Below, piece after piece: positions 1-4,591 of a DNA stretch of 4,591 nucleotides. The notes below the pieces were generated by a model that was not told where the DNA came from, searched no databases, and saw nothing but the letters and a program-made list of their open reading frames with translations. A program made the position numbers and the translations under genes. The stretch comes from a virus (lineage: Duplodnaviria > Heunggongvirae > Uroviricota > Caudoviricetes): the IMG/VR virus record IMGVR_UViG_2734482569_000010; one strand, written 5' to 3'. Positions within the stretch are counted from its first letter, which is position 1. Each line of letters opens with the position of its first letter.

Positions 1-41
1 GCTTTGAACTCTTTAGAGTAACGTTGGGTTTTTCTGCTCAT
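1..41 (-). CDS. IS3-family transposase OrfA, N-terminal 14 codons only (continues beyond window start)
   Basis: Start ATG at 41-39 on the - strand, AGGAG 6 nt upstream; translation MSRKTQRYSKEFKA. All three + frames have stops within 1-60, so this stretch is not + coding. Confidence 0.55.
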   Translation of the reverse strand, partial: MSRKTQRYSKEFK

Positions 42-105
42 TATTAGCTCCTTCTGATGCCATTCTATTTCAGGAAGGAGTGTCCGTTAAACTCAGGCTA
101 CCTCA
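1..105 (-). mobile_element. Terminal segment of an IS3-family insertion sequence (IS600-like), truncated by the window edge; inferred IS terminus near 103-105
   Basis: The - strand carries a Shine-Dalgarno (GAAGGAG) and an ATG at 41-39 opening an ORF that reads MSRKTQRYSKEFKA and leaves the window, which I recognise as the N-terminus of IS3-family OrfA (IS600-type). Reverse complement of 76-105 reads TGAGGTAGCCTGAGTTTAACGGACACTCC, a TGA-initiated terminal inverted-repeat-like end. The exact boundary is uncertain by about 10 bp. Confidence 0.6.
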
Positions 106-782
106 GGTTATTCGCTTCTGGGCATGGGCGGATCAACAAATGATAGACGGTAATGCAGATTGTAACGCTCGCGGCGTTACAAAAAGTGCAATAGATCGCA
201 TCACTTTTATGTCTGGTTTTGCTGATGCGTTAATTCAGGTTGGATGGCTGGTCGAAAATGACGGAGGGCTTTCTCTACCTAACTTTGAACGTCATAACGG
301 AAAAAGCTCTAAAAAAAACGGGCGGTTACAAACGAGCGAGTAACAAAAATACGCGAACTGAAACGAAAAGGTAACGCTGCCAGCGTTACACAAACGGATC
401 AAAAAGCGTTACCAGAGGAAGAGGAAGAGGAAGATCTAAATACTGATCTCCCCCTCGCCAAAAACGAGCGTCTAAAAAATTCGAGCCGGAGGCTATTGAG
501 CTGCCCGATTGGTTGCCGGAAACACTCTGGCATGAGTGGGTCCGGTTCAGACAGGCATTGCGAAAACCGATTCGAACGGAGCAGGGCGCTAACGGGGCGA
601 TACGGGAACTGGAAAAATTCCGTCAGCAGGGTTTTACACCTGAGCAGGTGATTCGACACAGCATCGCCAATGAATACCAGGGCCTGTTCGCGCCGAAAGG
701 TGTTCGGCCTGAGACGTTGCTCCGACAGGTTAACACCGTCTCGTTGCCGGACAGTGCGATCCCGCCAGGCTTCAGGGGGTAA
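106..782 (+). pseudogene. Phage replication initiator/organizer protein (Rac YdaU-like) with DnaT-like C-terminal domain; 5' end removed by the IS insertion, two apparent -1 frameshifts
   Basis: Protein-like translation is continuous only by reading frame 2 (to stop at 341-343), then frame 1 (313 to about 476), then frame 0 (to TAA 780-782). The switches coincide with an A8 run (311-318) and an A6 run (474-479). The frame-0 segment has no ATG/GTG start or Shine-Dalgarno, only TTG at 513. The C-terminus ...VNTVSLPDSAIPPGFRG matches from memory the end of E. coli primosomal protein DnaT (...NTVSEPDSQIPPGFRG). The first ~9 residues of track ORF 80-343 are IS-derived. Confidence 0.6.
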
Positions 783-788
783 CGGACC

Positions 789-1516
789 ATGAAAAATATT
801 GCGACAGGCGGCGTTCTGGAACGCATCCGCCGACTGACCCCGCCACATGTAACCGCCCCATTCAGAACGGTAGCGGAGTGGCGCGAGTGGCAACTTGCTG
901 AAGGCCAGAAACGTAGCGAGGAGATCAACCGCCTGAATCGCCAGTTGCGGGTGGAAAAAATTCTGAATCGCTCAGGCATCCAGCCGTTGCACCGTAAATG
1001 CTCGTTTGCGAATTACCAGGTGCAGAACGACGGCCAGCGATACGCGTTAAGCCAGGCGAAATCCATCGCCGATGAACTGATGACCGGGTGTACAAATTTT
1101 GCGTTCAGCGGAAAACCTGGTACCGGGAAGAATCACTTAGCGGCAGCTATCGGGAATCGCCTGCTGAAAGACGGTCAGACAGTGATTGTGGTTACCGTGG
1201 CTGATGTTATGAGCGCCCTGCNNNNNNNNNNNNNNNNNNNNNNNNNNNNNNNNNNNNNNNNNNNNNNNNNNNNNNNNNNNNNNNNNNNNNNNNNNNNNNN
1301 NNNNNNNNNNNNNNNNNNNNNNNNNNNNNNNNNNNNNNNNNNNNNNNNNNNNNNNNNNNNNNNNNNNNNNNNNNNNNNNNNNNNNNNNNNNNNNNNNNNN
1401 NNNNNNNNNNNNNNNNNNNNNNNNNNNNNNNNNNNNNNNNNNNNNNNNNNNNNNNNNNNNNNNNNNNNNNNNNNNNNNNNNNNNNNNNNNNNNNNNNNNN
1501 NNNNNNNNNNNNNNNN
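789..1516 (+). CDS. DnaC/IstB-family AAA+ replicative helicase loader (Rac YdaV-like); 3' end lies inside the N-run and is not determinable
   Basis: ATG at 789, 6 nt after the upstream TAA. Walker A motif FSGKPGTGKNHLAAAIGNRL is present, and the N-terminal region resembles prophage DnaC-like proteins. Only 789-1221 is visible. No stop occurs in any frame in 1517-1535, so the stop must lie inside the masked region. The track ORF 789-1955 is an artefact of translating N as X. Confidence 0.8.
1222..1516. other. Run of 295 N (masked or unresolved sequence) inside the DnaC-like gene
   Basis: Directly visible. The length is roughly what is needed to finish a DnaC-sized protein of about 245 aa before the next gene at 1533, suggesting length-preserving masking rather than an arbitrary gap. 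Confidence 0.95.
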
Positions 1517-2516: not shown

Positions 2517-3203
2517 ATGACCCCAATAAACATATTTATGACAGTTGCTGATTTCAAACGGCCCAAATTGGAGCTCCCAAACGGGGCAAACAAACTACTA
2601 CTGCACTCTTGCTGTGCTCCATGTTCCGGTGAGGTGATGGAGGCGCTTCAGGCCTCGGGAATCGACTACACCATCTTTTTCTACAACCCGAACATTCATC
2701 CTCAGAAAGAGTATTTAATTCGTAAGGATGAGAATATTCGCTTTGCTGAACAACACGGCGTGCCGTTTATTGATGCTGATTACGACACAGACAACTGGTT
2801 TGAACGAGCCAAAGGAATGGAATGGGAGCCCGAACGAGGGATCCGTTGCACCATGTGTTTTGACATGCGTTTTGAGCGGACAGCGCTGTACGCCGCTGAA
2901 AATGGTTTCAGTGTGATCAGCAGTTCACTGGGCATTTCACGCTGGAAAAATATGCAGCAGGTTAACGACTGTGGGCGGCGAGCCGTCGCGCATTATCCGG
3001 GCATGGTGTACTGGGATTATAACTGGCGCAAGCAGGGCGGCTCGTCCCGTATGATTGAAATCAGCAAGCGCGAAAAATTCTATCAGCAGGAATATTGTGG
3101 CTGTGTGTATTCTCTGCGCGATACCAATCTACACCGCAAATCTCAGGGACGCCCTCTTATCAAAATTGGTCAACTCCACTACGGTAAAGAAGAGAAGGAG
3201 TGA
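2517..3203 (+). CDS. queH: Epoxyqueuosine reductase QueH (DUF208 family) homolog
   Basis: 228-aa ORF with the QueH signature motifs [25 protein letters not shown] and QEYCGCVYS, with the Cys pattern expected for its metal sites. The start is ambiguous between ATG 2517 and ATG 2538; neither has a clear Shine-Dalgarno. The frame is closed upstream by TAG at 2481-2483. Confidence 0.85.
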
Positions 3204-3224: not shown

Positions 3225-3254
3225 TTGATTTCATATTGGCGAGGTAAGTAGAAT
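3225..3254 (+). promoter_or_regulatory. Putative sigma70 promoter P1 (TTGATT, 18-nt spacer, TAGAAT), predicted start site near 3261
   Basis: -35 TTGATT at 3225-3230 and -10 TAGAAT at 3249-3254, about 20 nt after the queH stop and pointing into the masked locus. Sequence pattern only. Confidence 0.4.
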
Positions 3255-3272
3255 GACTGCGGGTGCTTGAGG

Positions 3273-3309
3273 CTATCTGCTTCAGGCATGAACACCAAAA
3301 GGCAGATAG
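3273..3309. repeat. Perfect 8-bp inverted repeat CTATCTGC / GCAGATAG separated by 21 nt
   Basis: 3273-3280 is the exact reverse complement of 3302-3309. It lies in the predicted 5' leader of the P1 transcript. A third direct copy, GCAGATAG, occurs at 3760-3767. Confidence 0.55.
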
Positions 3310-3354
3310 AGAAAAGCCCCAGTTAACATTACGCGTCCGGCAAGACGCTTAACA

Positions 3355-3655
3355 NNNNNNNNNNNNNNNNNNNNNNNNNNNNNNNNNNNNNNNNNNNNNN
3401 NNNNNNNNNNNNNNNNNNNNNNNNNNNNNNNNNNNNNNNNNNNNNNNNNNNNNNNNNNNNNNNNNNNNNNNNNNNNNNNNNNNNNNNNNNNNNNNNNNNN
3501 NNNNNNNNNNNNNNNNNNNNNNNNNNNNNNNNNNNNNNNNNNNNNNNNNNNNNNNNNNNNNNNNNNNNNNNNNNNNNNNNNNNNNNNNNNNNNNNNNNNN
3601 NNNNNNNNNNNNNNNNNNNNNNNNNNNNNNNNNNNNNNNNNNNNNNNNNNNNNNN
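3355..3655. other. Run of 301 N (masked or unresolved sequence) between promoter P1 and the intrinsic terminator
   Basis: Directly visible. Content is unknown; the flanks suggest a short + strand transcription unit. Confidence 0.95.
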
Positions 3656-3679
3656 CATCCTCAACGCACCCGCACTTAA

Positions 3680-3722
3680 CCCGCCCATCGCTGTGATCTC
3701 TCAGCGTTTCGGCGGGTTTTTT
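3680..3722 (+). terminator. Rho-independent terminator: two-tier GC-rich hairpin followed by a T6 tract
   Basis: Outer stem CCCGCC (3680-3685) pairs with GGCGGG (3711-3716); inner stem CGCTG (3689-3693) pairs with CAGCG (3702-3706) around an 8-nt loop. TTTTTT follows at 3717-3722, then GTTGTTT. The T-tract is on the + strand only. Confidence 0.55.
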
Positions 3723-3742
3723 GTTGTTTATTTCCGGTGAAT

Positions 3743-3770
3743 TTGATTCGCGCACCTTCGCAGATAGAAT
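3743..3770 (+). promoter_or_regulatory. Putative sigma70 promoter P2 (TTGATT, 16-nt spacer, TAGAAT), near-duplicate of P1
   Basis: -35 TTGATT at 3743-3748 and -10 TAGAAT at 3765-3770, the same hexamers as P1, with ACT 2-3 nt after the -10 in both. Sits between the terminator and the ORF at 3852, giving a leader of about 75 nt. Confidence 0.4.
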
Positions 3771-3851
3771 CGACTCACTTAAGTAGCGCGCAGGGAGAAG
3801 AGGGATGGACCCCGAACAGGGGAGAGCTATTTATCTGGAAGGATTCTGAAG

Positions 3852-4139
3852 ATGAAAATCGAAGAATTGCGTGAAATTTTTAGTGAAAATGGCCTCTATG
3901 CTGTGCGCGTTGAGAATGGAGCGATTGTCAGCCATTGCCGCATTAGATGTTTGCAATCTCAACAAAGGAAGAGCGGTGCTGTGTTATTTTATTTTTGTAA
4001 TGGACTTCTGACGGACGGTTTTATTTTGCGTGAGGACGAATTTGTCACATCATTACGGGTTTTGAAAGAGATTGGTTTTAAGGCTGGTTTTCTGCTTTTG
4101 CTGAAGAATAAACTCATCTACAATCTTGAGCAGGATTGA
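3852..4139 (+). CDS. Hypothetical small protein (95 aa), AT-rich relative to its neighbours
   Basis: ATG at 3852 with GGAAGGA 8 nt upstream. Translation is protein-like with mixed hydrophobic and charged residues. Stop TGA at 4137-4139. No family recognised. Confidence 0.55.
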   Translation: MKIEELREIFSENGLYAVRVENGAIVSHCRIRCLQSQQRKSGAVLFYFCNGLLTDGFILREDEFVTSLRVLKEIGFKAGFLLLLKNKLIYNLEQD

Positions 4140-4177
4140 ACTCCTGCTGTGTAACACCGTGCCACCGGAGAAAGCCG

Positions 4178-4531
4178 ATGGCACATATACAACTGGTCAA
4201 ACAAACCTCTTCCGGATTACTTCTCCCGGCGACGCCGGAGAGTTGCGATTTTCTGCATCAAATCAAAATAGGTGAGTGGATACACGCAGACTTTAAGCGT
4301 GTGTGTAACTACGCATTCCACAAGCGTTTTTTCAAACTCCTGCAACTGGGTTTCGATTACTGGACTCCGGTCGGTGGGGCGATCACGCCTCGCGAACGAA
4401 AACTGGTGTCCGGTTTCGTTGATTACCTGTGTGAATCAGTAGGCCGGGAACATACGCCAGCTCTGAGCGAAGCCGCAGAGCAATTGAGGTGTACTGGCAA
4501 TAGCGGACACTACCATTTGTTCTTTTTTTAA
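4178..4531 (+). CDS. Hypothetical phage-associated protein (117 aa)
   Basis: The track ORF begins at TTG 4136, but ATG 4178 with GGAG 7 nt upstream is the more credible start. Translation MAHIQLVKQTSSGLLLPATPESCDFLHQIKIGEWIHADFKRVCNYAFHKRFFKLLQLGFDYWTPVGG... ends at TAA 4529-4531. No confident family assignment. Confidence 0.6.
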   Translation: MAHIQLVKQTSSGLLLPATPESCDFLHQIKIGEWIHADFKRVCNYAFHKRFFKLLQLGFDYWTPVGGAITPRERKLVSGFVDYLCESVGREHTPALSEAAEQLRCTGNSGHYHLFFF

Positions 4532-4591
4532 GCAGCCATCTGATGATATTTTTCCCTGAAGGCTGCCGGGGAGATATTCCCCAGACGAGAG

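What the first reader, a model, noticed from the sequence alone, without database searches (positions are those of the whole stretch)
3225..3770. Duplicated promoter architecture and a thrice-repeated GCAGATAG motif flanking the masked locus
P1 and P2 share identical -35 (TTGATT) and -10 (TAGAAT) hexamers and the downstream ACT. The octamer GCAGATAG occurs inverted at 3273-3280, direct at 3302-3309 and again at 3760-3767, overlapping the -10 of P2. This suggests a common regulator binding both units, or duplication of a regulatory cassette; the 8-bp palindrome with a 21-nt spacer could alternatively be an RNA hairpin in the P1 leader.
Basis: seen in the sequence. Interest (0 to 1): 0.45.

Follow-up and report, generated by a model that had tools for sequence, protein, structure and literature searches.

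The report
hok/sok toxin leader plus rem promoter
The masked locus is an ordinary, already well-understood hok/sok toxin-antitoxin cassette in a decayed prophage: the inverted GCAGATAG pair is a conserved hairpin in the toxin mRNA leader, and the third copy and the look-alike second promoter (which drives the neighbouring rem gene) are coincidences.

Summary

P1 is the hok mRNA promoter, with the start at about 3261. The inverted GCAGATAG pair (3273-3282 with 3300-3309) is the inner helix of the hok leader's 'tac' stem-loop. It matches Rfam RF01794 at 117 bits and is kept by compensatory changes (A:U, G:C, U:A, G.U) across genera. The 5' end GGGTGCTTGAGG pairs with the 3' fbi box (3659-3671).

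P2 is a separate promoter for the downstream rem-like antirepressor gene. Its -10 TAGAAT is invariant in 32 distinct upstream variants.

- **Third GCAGATAG:** it overlaps that -10 and occurs only in the window's own lineage.
- **Shared -35 TTGATT:** at P1 it results from a lineage-specific 10-bp deletion.
- **Duplication:** the two 5' regions show no similarity beyond short words.

The 'RNA hairpin' alternative is right. The 'common regulator' and 'duplicated cassette' readings are not supported. This is already known biology, of low interest. The one loose end is an almost invariant ~75-nt rem leader of unknown function.

The parts
3225..3230 (+). P1 -35 hexamer TTGATT of the hok promoter. 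It holds this position only in this lineage.
   Evidence: Six sister variants with the same QueH-side flank carry 10 extra nt (CGGGAGTTAA-like). They use TTGGCG with a 17-bp spacer, and TTGATT then lies 28 bp from the -10.
3249..3254 (+). P1 -10 hexamer TAGAAT of the hok promoter
   Evidence: It lies 6 nt upstream of the conserved leader start GGGTGC. In 79 distinct hok upstream regions this position always holds a -10-like hexamer: TAGAAT 38, TATATT 11, TATAAT 7, TAAGAT 5, TAAAAT 5 and others.
3261..3722 (+). Full-length hok mRNA: inferred start at G3261, end at the terminator T-run. The middle part is masked in the window.
   Evidence: The RF01794 match begins exactly at GGGUGC. The L001 equivalent (4023-4470) folds at -191.2 kcal/mol, z = -7.96.
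3261..3272 (+). tac element, the 5' end GGGTGCTTGAGG
   Evidence: It pairs with the 3' fbi box in the MFE of the full-length RNA. Nt 1-8 pair with AAGCCCC in the 60-nt leader fold and in the Rfam consensus. Element names come from PMC9841398.
3273..3282 (+). Left arm CTATCTGCTT of the inner helix of the tac stem-loop. It also supplies the loop and 3' arm of the nascent-transcript metastable hairpin (3263-3273 with 3279-3289).
3300..3309 (+). Right arm AAGGCAGATAG of the inner helix.
   Evidence: Covariation in 44 distinct leaders: column 15-47 AU 25, GC 15, GU 2; column 21-41 CG 39, UA 4, UG 1. 81% of cells are paired against 28-45% with slid partners. Erwinia has U:A at the same position.
3314..3320 (+). 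AAGCCCC, the 3' side of the outer tac stem (ucb / anti-SD region)
   Evidence: It pairs with 3261-3268 in the Rfam consensus and in the 60-nt fold. In the full-length fold it pairs with the GAGGCC mok Shine-Dalgarno region.
3306..3354 (-). Visible 3' part of the predicted Sok antisense RNA: terminator hairpin and U-tail. Its 5' part and its promoter lie in the mask.
   Evidence: On the minus strand of L001: TTGCCT, 17 bp, TAACCT, then a transcript of about 70 nt with a single-stranded 5' end, a long hairpin (-30 kcal/mol) and CUUUUCU. This is inferred, not measured. The simple promoter scan did not flag it.
3355..3655 (+). Masked stretch. In near-identical genomes it holds the mok Shine-Dalgarno GAGG and start, the Sok promoter on the minus strand, and the 51-codon hokD ORF. 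The true length in L001 is 285 nt.
   Evidence: L001 annotation hokD. Pfam PF01848 HOK_GEF at 81 bits. mok is in frame with hok. L167 and L168 match the 524 nt compared to the left of the mask exactly.
3659..3671 (+). fbi (fold-back inhibition) box CCTCAACGCACCC, complementary to the mRNA 5' end
   Evidence: One search shows the pairing. The box was found at the expected distance in 73 of 78 leader-bearing loci.
3679..3722 (+). hok mRNA intrinsic terminator, AACCCGCC...GGCGGGTTTTTT. The loop carries a 23-nt insert that forms a small hairpin of its own.
   Evidence: One search gives the structure. One search shows that K-12-type loci have the short CCCGC-TTCG-GCGGG version. The scan missed it because of the long loop.
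3743..3748 (+). P2 -35 hexamer TTGATT of the rem promoter
   Evidence: In 31 of 32 distinct variants a TTGnnn hexamer lies 16 or 18 bp upstream of the -10, in unrelated spacer contexts.
3765..3770 (+). P2 -10 hexamer TAGAAT of the rem promoter
   Evidence: Invariant in all 32 distinct variants, at a fixed 14-16 nt from the invariant leader block.
3760..3767 (+). Third GCAGATAG copy. It is a chance match whose last three bases are the first half of the -10.
   Evidence: The same site reads CGGAATAG (10 variants), GTAAATAG (4), TTAATTAG (4), ACGGCTAG (4), CTGACTAG (2) and others elsewhere. GCAGATAG occurs only in the window type and two one-substitution derivatives.
3777..3851 (+). Near-invariant 5' leader of rem. 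Function unknown.
   Evidence: It is not unusually stable (z = 0.11). It shows no compensatory changes and has no Rfam match.
3852..4139 (+). rem-like ORF of 95 aa, a homologue of the Qin prophage antirepressor Rem
   Evidence: 68% identity to K-12 Rem, E = 2e-34. Rem is described as an antirepressor of DicA in PMC10448788.

Best explanation
The region holds two adjacent but independent transcription units of a lambdoid (Qin-like) prophage remnant.

- P1 (TTGATT, 18 bp, TAGAAT) starts the hok mRNA at about G3261.
- The first 60 nt form the tac stem-loop.
- During transcription, the tac 5' end first pairs with the sequence just downstream of it, giving a metastable hairpin.
- In the finished mRNA, the tac 5' end pairs with the fbi box at the 3' end (3659-3671), and the anti-SD (ucb) region covers the mok Shine-Dalgarno. 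The toxin is therefore not translated.
- After slow 3' trimming, the 5' end refolds onto the ucb. mok and hok become translatable unless the short-lived antisense Sok RNA, made from the opposite strand, binds and triggers decay.

Unit 2 starts right after the hok terminator. P2 (TTGATT, 16 bp, TAGAAT) transcribes a conserved leader of about 75 nt and the rem-like antirepressor gene.

The third GCAGATAG copy and the identical -35 hexamers are coincidences with no regulatory meaning.

What is shown here:
- the identity of the locus;
- the conserved helix with covariation;
- the 5'-3' complementarity;
- conservation of both -10 elements;
- non-conservation of the third motif.

What is inferred from the published R1 hok/sok model and not measured here:
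- the transcription start sites;
- the Sok transcript;
- the order of refolding steps.
For: Identity of the locus:
- Flanks at 99.9% identity place an annotated hokD between them.
- Pfam HOK_GEF scores 81 bits.
- RF01794 scores 117 bits against a gathering score of 59, E = 8.7e-28. It starts at GGGUGC, and its consensus pairs exactly the two octamer arms.
- The same family scores 86-142 bits in Erwinia, Kalamiella, Photorhabdus, Kluyvera, Pantoea and Citrobacter. The helix there reads CUUUCUGCC/GGCAGAAAG, CUGUCUGUC/GGCAGAUAG and similar.

The helix:
- In 44 distinct leaders, 81% of cells are paired against 28-45% when partners are slid. Two pairs change on both sides. No shuffle out of 500 reaches the observed covariation score.
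- G.U variants occur only in the sense of the + strand, which points to RNA rather than DNA.

Folding:
- Full-length mRNA: nt 1-12 pair with CCUCAACGCACCC, z = -7.96.
- 38-nt and 60-nt fragments give the metastable hairpin and the tac stem respectively.
- These match the published description of tac/fbi/ucb and the metastable hairpin in PMC9841398.

P1: a -10-like hexamer lies 6 nt before the leader in 79 distinct contexts.

P2: TAGAAT is invariant and TTGnnn lies at 16 or 18 bp in 31 of 32 variants with unrelated spacers. The downstream ORF is 68% identical to Rem.

Independence of the two units.
Against: - No expression data. Both start sites and the Sok RNA are inferred from sequence.
- The hok ORF, the mok start and the Sok promoter are masked in the window itself. 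They are read from L001, L167 and L168. The mask is 301 nt, but the sequence there is 285 nt in L001, so the window's own copy could differ.
- The MFE of an arbitrarily 3'-truncated mRNA kept the metastable hairpin instead of forming the tac/ucb stem. The activation step is therefore not reproduced by thermodynamic folding here.
- The covariation sample consists of closely related loci. The shuffle control does not correct for relatedness.
- The simple scan did not detect the Sok promoter or the terminator.
Confidence: 0.92

Rival explanations
1. A common DNA-binding regulator recognises GCAGATAG at the P1 leader and at the P2 -10, and co-regulates the masked locus and the downstream gene.
For: Three exact copies within 500 bp, against 0.07 expected for this octamer. 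One copy overlaps a -10, which is a classic repressor position.
Against: - The P2 copy is absent from 29 of 32 distinct P2 variants, while the promoter itself is conserved.
- The two leader copies change in a complementarity-preserving way, including G.U, rather than preserving sequence.
- hok and rem units occur separately.
- 43 octamers occur three or more times in this window.
Confidence: 0.03
2. P1 and P2 are products of a duplication of one regulatory cassette.
For: Identical -35 and -10 hexamers and a nearby GACT in this window.
Against: - The spacers differ in length (18 against 16 bp) and in sequence.
- The best local alignment of the two 5' regions is the 9-nt word GCAGATAGA. It scores 18 against 16 +/- 2.3, and 213 of 1000 shuffles are as good.
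- The P1 -35 identity arose through a 10-bp deletion found only in this lineage.
- Relatives of each promoter diverge from one another in different ways.
Confidence: 0.03
3. The invariant TAGAATC at P2 is conserved as RNA, instead of or as well as serving as a -10. In transcripts that read through the hok terminator it would pair with GGAUUCUG next to the rem Shine-Dalgarno and block rem translation. Only P2-initiated transcripts would then be translated.
For: RNAalifold pairs UAGAAUC with GAUUCUG: 7 pairs, kept in 17-20 of 20 sequences. The C after TAGAAT is also conserved, which a -10 does not require.
Against: - There is no compensatory change, because both sides are simply invariant.
- L002 breaks two of the seven pairs yet keeps TAGAATC.
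- TTGnnn at exactly 16 or 18 bp in unrelated contexts is the signature of a promoter.
- A terminator sits directly upstream in most contexts.
Confidence: 0.1
4. The 8-bp inverted repeat with a 21-bp spacer is a DNA operator for a dimeric protein acting on P1.
For: It is a perfect 8-bp palindromic pair just downstream of a promoter.
Against: - The variants keep complementarity through G.U-type changes that would be A-C mismatches on the other strand. The base identity also switches among A:U, G:C and U:A.
- The helix is part of a curated RNA family structure.
- It takes part in mutually exclusive RNA folds, as published for hok.
Confidence: 0.03

Closest known systems
hok/sok (parB) of plasmid R1 and the chromosomal hok family (hokA-E); Rfam RF01794; Pfam PF01848
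   Same: - A toxin of about 50 aa, with a mok reading frame and GAGG Shine-Dalgarno.
- An antisense Sok unit.
- A leader starting GGGUGCUUGA, with the tac stem-loop and ucb.
- A 3' fbi box complementary to the 5' end.
- A metastable 5' hairpin and an intrinsic terminator.

   Different: - The inner helix reads CUAUCUGC/GCAGAUAG instead of the family consensus CUuUcuGcc/ggCagAaAG, an A:U where the consensus has U:A.
- An extra hairpin of about 20 nt in the second leader stem, also seen in other hokD-type loci.
- A 23-nt insert in the terminator loop.
- A -35 created by a 10-bp deletion.
hokD (relF) of the E. coli K-12 Qin prophage
   Same: Orthologous toxin and the same downstream neighbours, hokD followed by rem. 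The fbi box, terminator, rem promoter and rem leader are shared.
   Different: In K-12, hokD starts 72 nt after relE. No room is left there for P1, the tac/ucb leader, mok or Sok. The window carries the complete cassette, with QueH rather than relBE upstream.
hokW-sokW of Sakai prophage 5 in E. coli O157 (PMC8621323)
   Same: [quoted passage not shown]
   Different: A different hok subfamily and a different position in the prophage. No function was tested for the present copy.
Rem antirepressor of Qin (PMC10448788)
   Same: The ORF downstream of P2 is 68% identical to Rem and sits in the same synteny. Rem relieves DicA repression of dicBp.
   Different: That paper states that the condition inducing Rem is not known. 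It does not mention a rem promoter, and I found no description of the rem promoter or leader in the papers I searched. Unlike the Gifsy antirepressors, there is no LexA box here.

Membership tests
[quoted passage not shown] | Small hydrophobic Hok/Gef toxin ORF (Pfam PF01848) | tested here: met
   The 51-aa ORF in L001 scores 81.1 bits against a cutoff of 22. It is masked in the window itself and is read from near-identical L001, L167 and L168.
[quoted passage not shown] | hok mRNA leader / Sok target region matching the curated covariance model RF01794 | tested here: met
   117 bits against a gathering score of 59, full length 1-157, + strand. The first 94 nt of the match are visible in the window (3261-3354).
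[quoted passage not shown] | Long-range tac/fbi pairing between the mRNA 5' and 3' ends | tested here: met
   Nt 1-12 pair with CCUCAACGCACCC in the MFE, z = -7.96. Both boxes are visible in the window (3261-3272, 3659-3671). The fbi box is present in 73 of 78 loci.
[quoted passage not shown] | tac stem-loop (tac/ucb) supported by covariation | tested here: met
   (AU 25 / GC 15 / GU 2; CG 39 / UA 4). (U:A in Erwinia). (60-nt fold at -24.1 kcal/mol, z = -3.5).
[quoted passage not shown] | Refolding from the fbi-closed form to the tac/ucb-open form after 3' processing | tested here: inconclusive
   The MFE of an arbitrary truncation (L001 4023-4400) kept the metastable hairpin rather than forming tac/ucb. 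The true processing site is unknown.
[quoted passage not shown] | Metastable 5' hairpin in the nascent transcript | tested here: met
   The first 38 nt fold with nt 3-13 paired to 19-29, -17.1 kcal/mol, z = -4.3. This matches the description in PMC9841398.
[quoted passage not shown] | mok reading frame with its own Shine-Dalgarno upstream of hok | tested here: met
   GAGG at L001 4124 and ATG at 4136, in frame with hok, giving a 70-aa product that still matches PF01848.
[quoted passage not shown] | Antisense Sok RNA with its own promoter | tested here: inconclusive
   A candidate exists: TTGCCT, 17 bp, TAACCT, followed by a hairpin-plus-U-tail transcript of about 70 nt. The consensus scan did not flag it, and there are no expression data.
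[quoted passage not shown] | Toxicity of Hok and its neutralisation by Sok | not testable with these tools
   Needs cloning and expression as done for hokW-sokW (PMC8621323).
Rem antirepressor module (Qin-like prophages) | Protein homology to K-12 Rem and hokD-rem synteny | tested here: met
   68% identity, E = 2e-34. Synteny. No Pfam family exists for it.
Rem antirepressor module (Qin-like prophages) | Relief of DicA-type repression | not testable with these tools
   Shown only for K-12 Rem (PMC10448788).
LexA-controlled antirepressor promoters (Gifsy type) | LexA box (CTGT-N8-ACAG) at the promoter | tested here: not met
   No match with up to 1 mismatch anywhere near P2. The only two matches in the window are at 684 and 1626.
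   Third copy present in 3 of 32 P2 variants. The alignment is not above shuffles. The -35 identity is due to a lineage-specific deletion.

The most novel reading that the evidence does not exclude
The invariant TAGAATC -10 and the nearly invariant ~75-nt leader (3777-3851) would form an undescribed cis-regulatory device that gates production of the Rem antirepressor. Rem's inducing signal is unknown.

The leader is more conserved than the rem coding sequence. It contains two GGA motifs about 45 nt apart, AGAGGGAUGGA and GGAAGGAUU at the Shine-Dalgarno, and a CCCC/GGGG hairpin.

Candidate mechanisms:
- binding of a translational repressor such as CsrA (my own reading of the motifs, not tested);
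- a downstream operator;
- anti-SD pairing in read-through transcripts.

If true, the leader would be the missing input of the DicA/Rem switch in Qin-like prophages.
Probability: 0.25. Interest if true: 0.45.

Novelty: already known. Interest (0 to 1): 0.12.

Why it matters
For the finding as stated, it matters little. It re-identifies one of the best-studied RNA-controlled toxin systems, and it shows that the apparent 'shared regulatory code' is a coincidence. This saves follow-up experiments (EMSA, regulator hunts) that would lead nowhere.

Two small points have some value.
- This prophage remnant carries a complete hokD cassette with promoter, leader, mok and Sok. The K-12 reference copy has lost these parts, so this copy is a better model for hokD regulation.
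- The rem promoter and leader are under strong purifying selection across many otherwise mosaic prophages. That gives a concrete place to look for the unknown signal that turns on the Rem antirepressor and hence the dicBF cell-division inhibitors.

Tried and rejected
- **Duplicated cassette.** Smith-Waterman of the hok 5' region against the rem 5' region with 1000 shuffles gave no signal.
- **Common operator.** Conservation of the third octamer was checked in 6 E. coli loci and 160 viral contigs. It is absent.
- **LexA control of P2**, by analogy with Gifsy antirepressors. There is no LexA box.
- **Structured RNA in the rem leader.** No Rfam hit, single-sequence z = 0.11, and no compensatory pairs in 20 sequences. 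Not supported, but not excluded.
- **Leader peptide in the rem 5' UTR** (ATGGACCCC...TGA, 14 codons). Read from the alignments. K-12 stops at codon 4, L002 at codon 9, the L136 type is fused in frame to rem, and the L122 type is out of frame. It is not a conserved ORF.
- **Folding of a 3'-truncated hok mRNA to show the tac/ucb switch.** The MFE kept the metastable hairpin, so the result is inconclusive.
- **The simple promoter/terminator scan.** It missed the hok terminator (long loop) and the Sok promoter (weak -10).
- **Other known RNA families in the neighbourhood, including the equivalent of the first masked stretch.** Only sok and four tRNAs reached the gathering score.
- **Large protein searches** (search for homologous proteins, representatives, structure prediction). 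Not run, because the identity of the locus was already unambiguous.
Full report
**1. The observation**

- P1: TTGATT at 3225-3230 and TAGAAT at 3249-3254, 18-bp spacer.
- P2: TTGATT at 3743-3748 and TAGAAT at 3765-3770, 16-bp spacer.
- CTATCTGC at 3273-3280, GCAGATAG at 3302-3309 and again at 3760-3767.

A pattern search finds exactly these three octamer copies. It expects 0.07 copies for this octamer in dinucleotide shuffles. The consensus promoter scan on the unmasked equivalent finds exactly these two promoter-like sites in 1 kb, with 1.0 +/- 1.0 expected.

A post hoc octamer is weak evidence, however. In this window 43 different octamers occur three or more times on either strand, against about 9 in shuffles.

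**2. What the masked locus is**

Both flanks of the mask match E. coli FDAARGOS_944 at 99.9%. In that genome the 285 nt between the flanks carry an annotated hokD type I toxin gene.
- Upstream lies an epoxyqueuosine reductase QueH gene.
- Downstream lie a hypothetical ORF, then DUF1367, DUF1364 and DUF1133 genes and tRNAs. This is a lambdoid prophage late-regulatory region.

A Shigella flexneri and an E. coli genome match the 524 nt compared to the left of the mask with no mismatch. The Shigella locus (L168) differs from the window by one substitution in the 291 aligned bases to the right of the mask.

The 51-aa ORF is a Hok/Gef protein (PF01848, 81 bits).

Rfam RF01794 ('sok') matches the + strand from GGGUGC, which equals window 3261, to the hok start codon. 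The score is 117 bits against a gathering score of 59, E = 8.7e-28. The model describes the sense-strand hok leader that contains the Sok target.

**3. The inverted GCAGATAG pair**

The Rfam consensus structure pairs gcCUuUcuGccuc with gaggCagAaAGgc. In this locus that is CUAUCUGCUU (3273-3282) with AAGGCAGAUAG (3300-3309). The result is ten pairs around a 17-nt loop, enclosed by GGG-UGCU (3261-3268) paired with AAGCCCC (3314-3320).

I collected 80 viral-contig hokD loci and aligned the 44 distinct leaders. On the Rfam structure:
- 81% of cells are standard pairs, against 28-45% when partners are slid by 1-3 columns.
- Column 15-47 is A:U in 25 sequences, G:C in 15 and G.U in 2.
- Column 21-41 is C:G in 39, U:A in 4 and U.G in 1.
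- No shuffle out of 500 reaches the observed covariation score.

The shuffle control does not correct for relatedness. The same family was therefore also examined in Erwinia, Kalamiella, Photorhabdus, Kluyvera, Pantoea and Citrobacter, where it scores 86-142 bits. There the helix reads CUUUCUGCC/GGCAGAAAG, CUGUCUGUC/GGCAGAUAG and CUAUCUG/CAGAUAG. One position thus takes U:A, A:U, G:C and G.U. The G.U variants make sense only as RNA of the + strand.

**4. How it works (published model, checked against this sequence)**

PMC9841398 summarises the hok mechanism.
- A tac/fbi interaction between the 5' and 3' ends locks the full-length mRNA.
- The ucb anti-SD covers the mok Shine-Dalgarno.
- 3' trimming lets tac refold onto ucb.
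- A metastable 5' hairpin prevents premature translation during transcription.

In this locus:
- **Full-length mRNA** (L001 4023-4470): it folds with nt 1-12 (GGGUGCUUGAGG) paired to CCUCAACGCACCC, which is window 3659-3671. The inner helix is intact and AGCCCC is paired to the GAGGCC mok Shine-Dalgarno region. The energy is -191 kcal/mol, z = -7.96.
- **First 38 nt:** they form the metastable hairpin (nt 3-13 with 19-29, z = -4.3).
- **First 60 nt:** they form the tac stem-loop (-24.1 kcal/mol, z = -3.5).
- **fbi box:** found at the expected distance in 73 of 78 leader-bearing loci.
- **mok:** GAGG, then ATG after 8 nt, in frame with hok.
- **Sok (minus strand):** TTGCCT, 17 bp, TAACCT is followed by an RNA of about 70 nt with a free 5' end, a long hairpin and a U-tail. 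Its 3' end overlaps window 3306-3354. The Sok unit is inferred only.

An arbitrary 3' truncation did not reproduce the tac/ucb switch in MFE folding.

**5. P1**

In 79 distinct hok upstream regions the hexamer 6 nt before GGGTGC is always -10-like: TAGAAT 38, TATATT 11, TATAAT 7, TAAGAT 5, TAAAAT 5 and others. P1 is therefore the hok promoter, and TAGAAT is just one acceptable version.

The -35 is not conserved. Six sister variants share the window's QueH-side flank. They read ...TTGATTTCATATTGGCGAGGTAACGGGAGTTAAGTAGAAT, with TTGGCG at 17 bp and TTGATT at 28 bp from the -10. The window type lacks 10 nt there, and this moves TTGATT into the -35 position.

**6. P2**

The ORF at 3852-4139 is 68% identical to Rem of the K-12 Qin prophage. 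The hokD-rem arrangement is that of K-12 and O157. Rem is an antirepressor that relieves DicA repression of dicBF, and its inducing signal is unknown (PMC10448788).

I used 80 more viral contigs found with the Rem-like protein together with the earlier loci. They yield 32 distinct P2 upstream variants.
- All 32 have TAGAAT at a fixed distance from an invariant leader block.
- 31 of 32 have TTGnnn at 16 or 18 bp, in otherwise unrelated spacers: TTGAAG-18 in 11, TTGATT-16 in 7 (from three unrelated contexts), TTGAGG-16 in 6 and TTGCTT-16 in 4.

This is the signature of a selected sigma-70 promoter.

The octamer at the 'third copy' site is CGGAATAG (10), GTAAATAG (4), TTAATTAG (4), ACGGCTAG (4), GCAGATAG (3, the window type plus two one-substitution derivatives) and others. 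Only the TAG of the -10 is conserved.

**7. Independence of the two units**

- 57 of 86 hok-side loci have no rem leader downstream.
- L005 and the L136 type have the terminator remnant, P2, the leader and rem without hok.
- The best local alignment between the two 5' regions is the 9-nt word GCAGATAGA. It scores 18 against 16 +/- 2.3, and 213 of 1000 shuffles are as good.
- No LexA box lies near P2.

The common-regulator and duplicated-cassette readings are therefore rejected. The RNA-hairpin reading is confirmed and can be named.

**8. Comparison with what is known, and novelty**

This is a member of the hok/sok family. The features I could test were met, apart from the refolding step and the Sok promoter, which stayed inconclusive. 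The toxicity assay is not testable here.

It differs from the K-12 hokD reference in retaining the full regulatory apparatus. In K-12, hokD starts 72 nt after relE.

Prophage-borne hok/sok loci are known, for example hokW-sokW (PMC8621323). hok genes are reported to be enriched in prophages (bioRxiv 10.1101/2025.08.07.668861). The finding is already-known biology.

**9. A loose end**

The rem leader (3777-3851) is almost invariant across loci whose upstream regions and rem coding sequences diverge.
- It has no Rfam match.
- It has no unusual stability (z = 0.11).
- It shows no compensatory changes.
- Its short upstream ORF is not conserved.

RNAalifold pairs the -10 sequence UAGAAUC with GAUUCUG beside the rem Shine-Dalgarno. 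That pairing could matter only in read-through transcripts.

Two GGA motifs resemble CsrA sites. This is my reading of the sequence and was not tested. The function of the leader is unknown, and it is the only part of the region that might repay experiments.

Noticed in passing
window 3777-3851: The 5' leader of the rem-like gene is nearly invariant (CTTAAGTAGCGCGCAGGGAGAAGAGGGATGGACCCCGAACAGGGGAG.GCTATTTATCTGGAAGGATTCTG) across loci whose upstream regions and rem coding sequences diverge. It has a CCCC/GGGG hairpin with only G.U-type changes and two GGA motifs about 45 nt apart. It has no Rfam hit and no unusual stability.
   Followed up: partly
window 1-110 and 4480-4591: Both ends of the window are ends of IS600 (IS3 family) copies, typical of Shigella and EIEC. 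The right-hand copy cuts the DUF1367 gene after about codon 104: homology to intact prophages stops at 4484 and Pfam matches positions 1-101 of 198. The segment is a prophage remnant bracketed by two IS600 copies.
   Followed up: partly
window 3231-3248 (P1 spacer): Relative to six sister variants with the same flank, this lineage has lost 10 nt (CGGGAGTTAA-like) between short direct repeats. That replaced the usual -35 (TTGGCG, 17-bp spacer) by TTGATT (18-bp spacer). The effect on hok promoter strength is unknown.
   Followed up: partly
window 3687-3709: The hok terminator loop carries a 23-nt insert (CCATCGCTGTGATCTCTCAGCGT) that is absent from K-12, O157 and other loci. The insert forms its own small hairpin.
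   Followed up: no
window 1222-1516 (first masked stretch): By coordinate offset from L001, it appears to cover the 3' part of the ydaV (DnaC-like ATPase) gene up to just before the DUF977 gene. In the L001 equivalent no Rfam family reaches the gathering score. Why it is masked is unclear. As with the hok mask, its length differs slightly from the real sequence.
   Followed up: partly
window 80-782: The gene annotated as one 262-aa hypothetical protein in L001 (739-1527), upstream of ydaV, appears here as two separate ORFs in different frames (80-343 and 513-782). It also runs into the IS600 end, so it is probably a pseudogene. Not verified by alignment.
   Followed up: no
L207 150-297 and L210 262-289 (Erwinia sp., Kalamiella sp.): CRISPR-DR4 repeats lie about 100 nt upstream of a strong hok/sok leader match (L207 392-540, L210 386-534). 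A hok/sok cassette therefore sits directly next to a CRISPR array.
   Followed up: no
L194 456-603 and 1085-1233 (Photorhabdus temperata): Two hok/sok leaders lie in tandem about 630 nt apart on one strand. Many other Photorhabdus contigs carry hok copies.
   Followed up: no
window 2517-3203: A QueH (epoxyqueuosine reductase) gene is carried in the prophage immediately upstream of hok (Pfam 220 bits). About 940 of 5426 complete E. coli genomes have this QueH-hok junction over at least 80% of the query.
   Followed up: no
L115-L120 upstream of rem (about 100-170 nt before the ATG): Some rem loci carry short tandem repeats (TTGTATTTG / TATTGTTTG units) in place of the hok terminator, just upstream of the rem promoter.
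   Followed up: no
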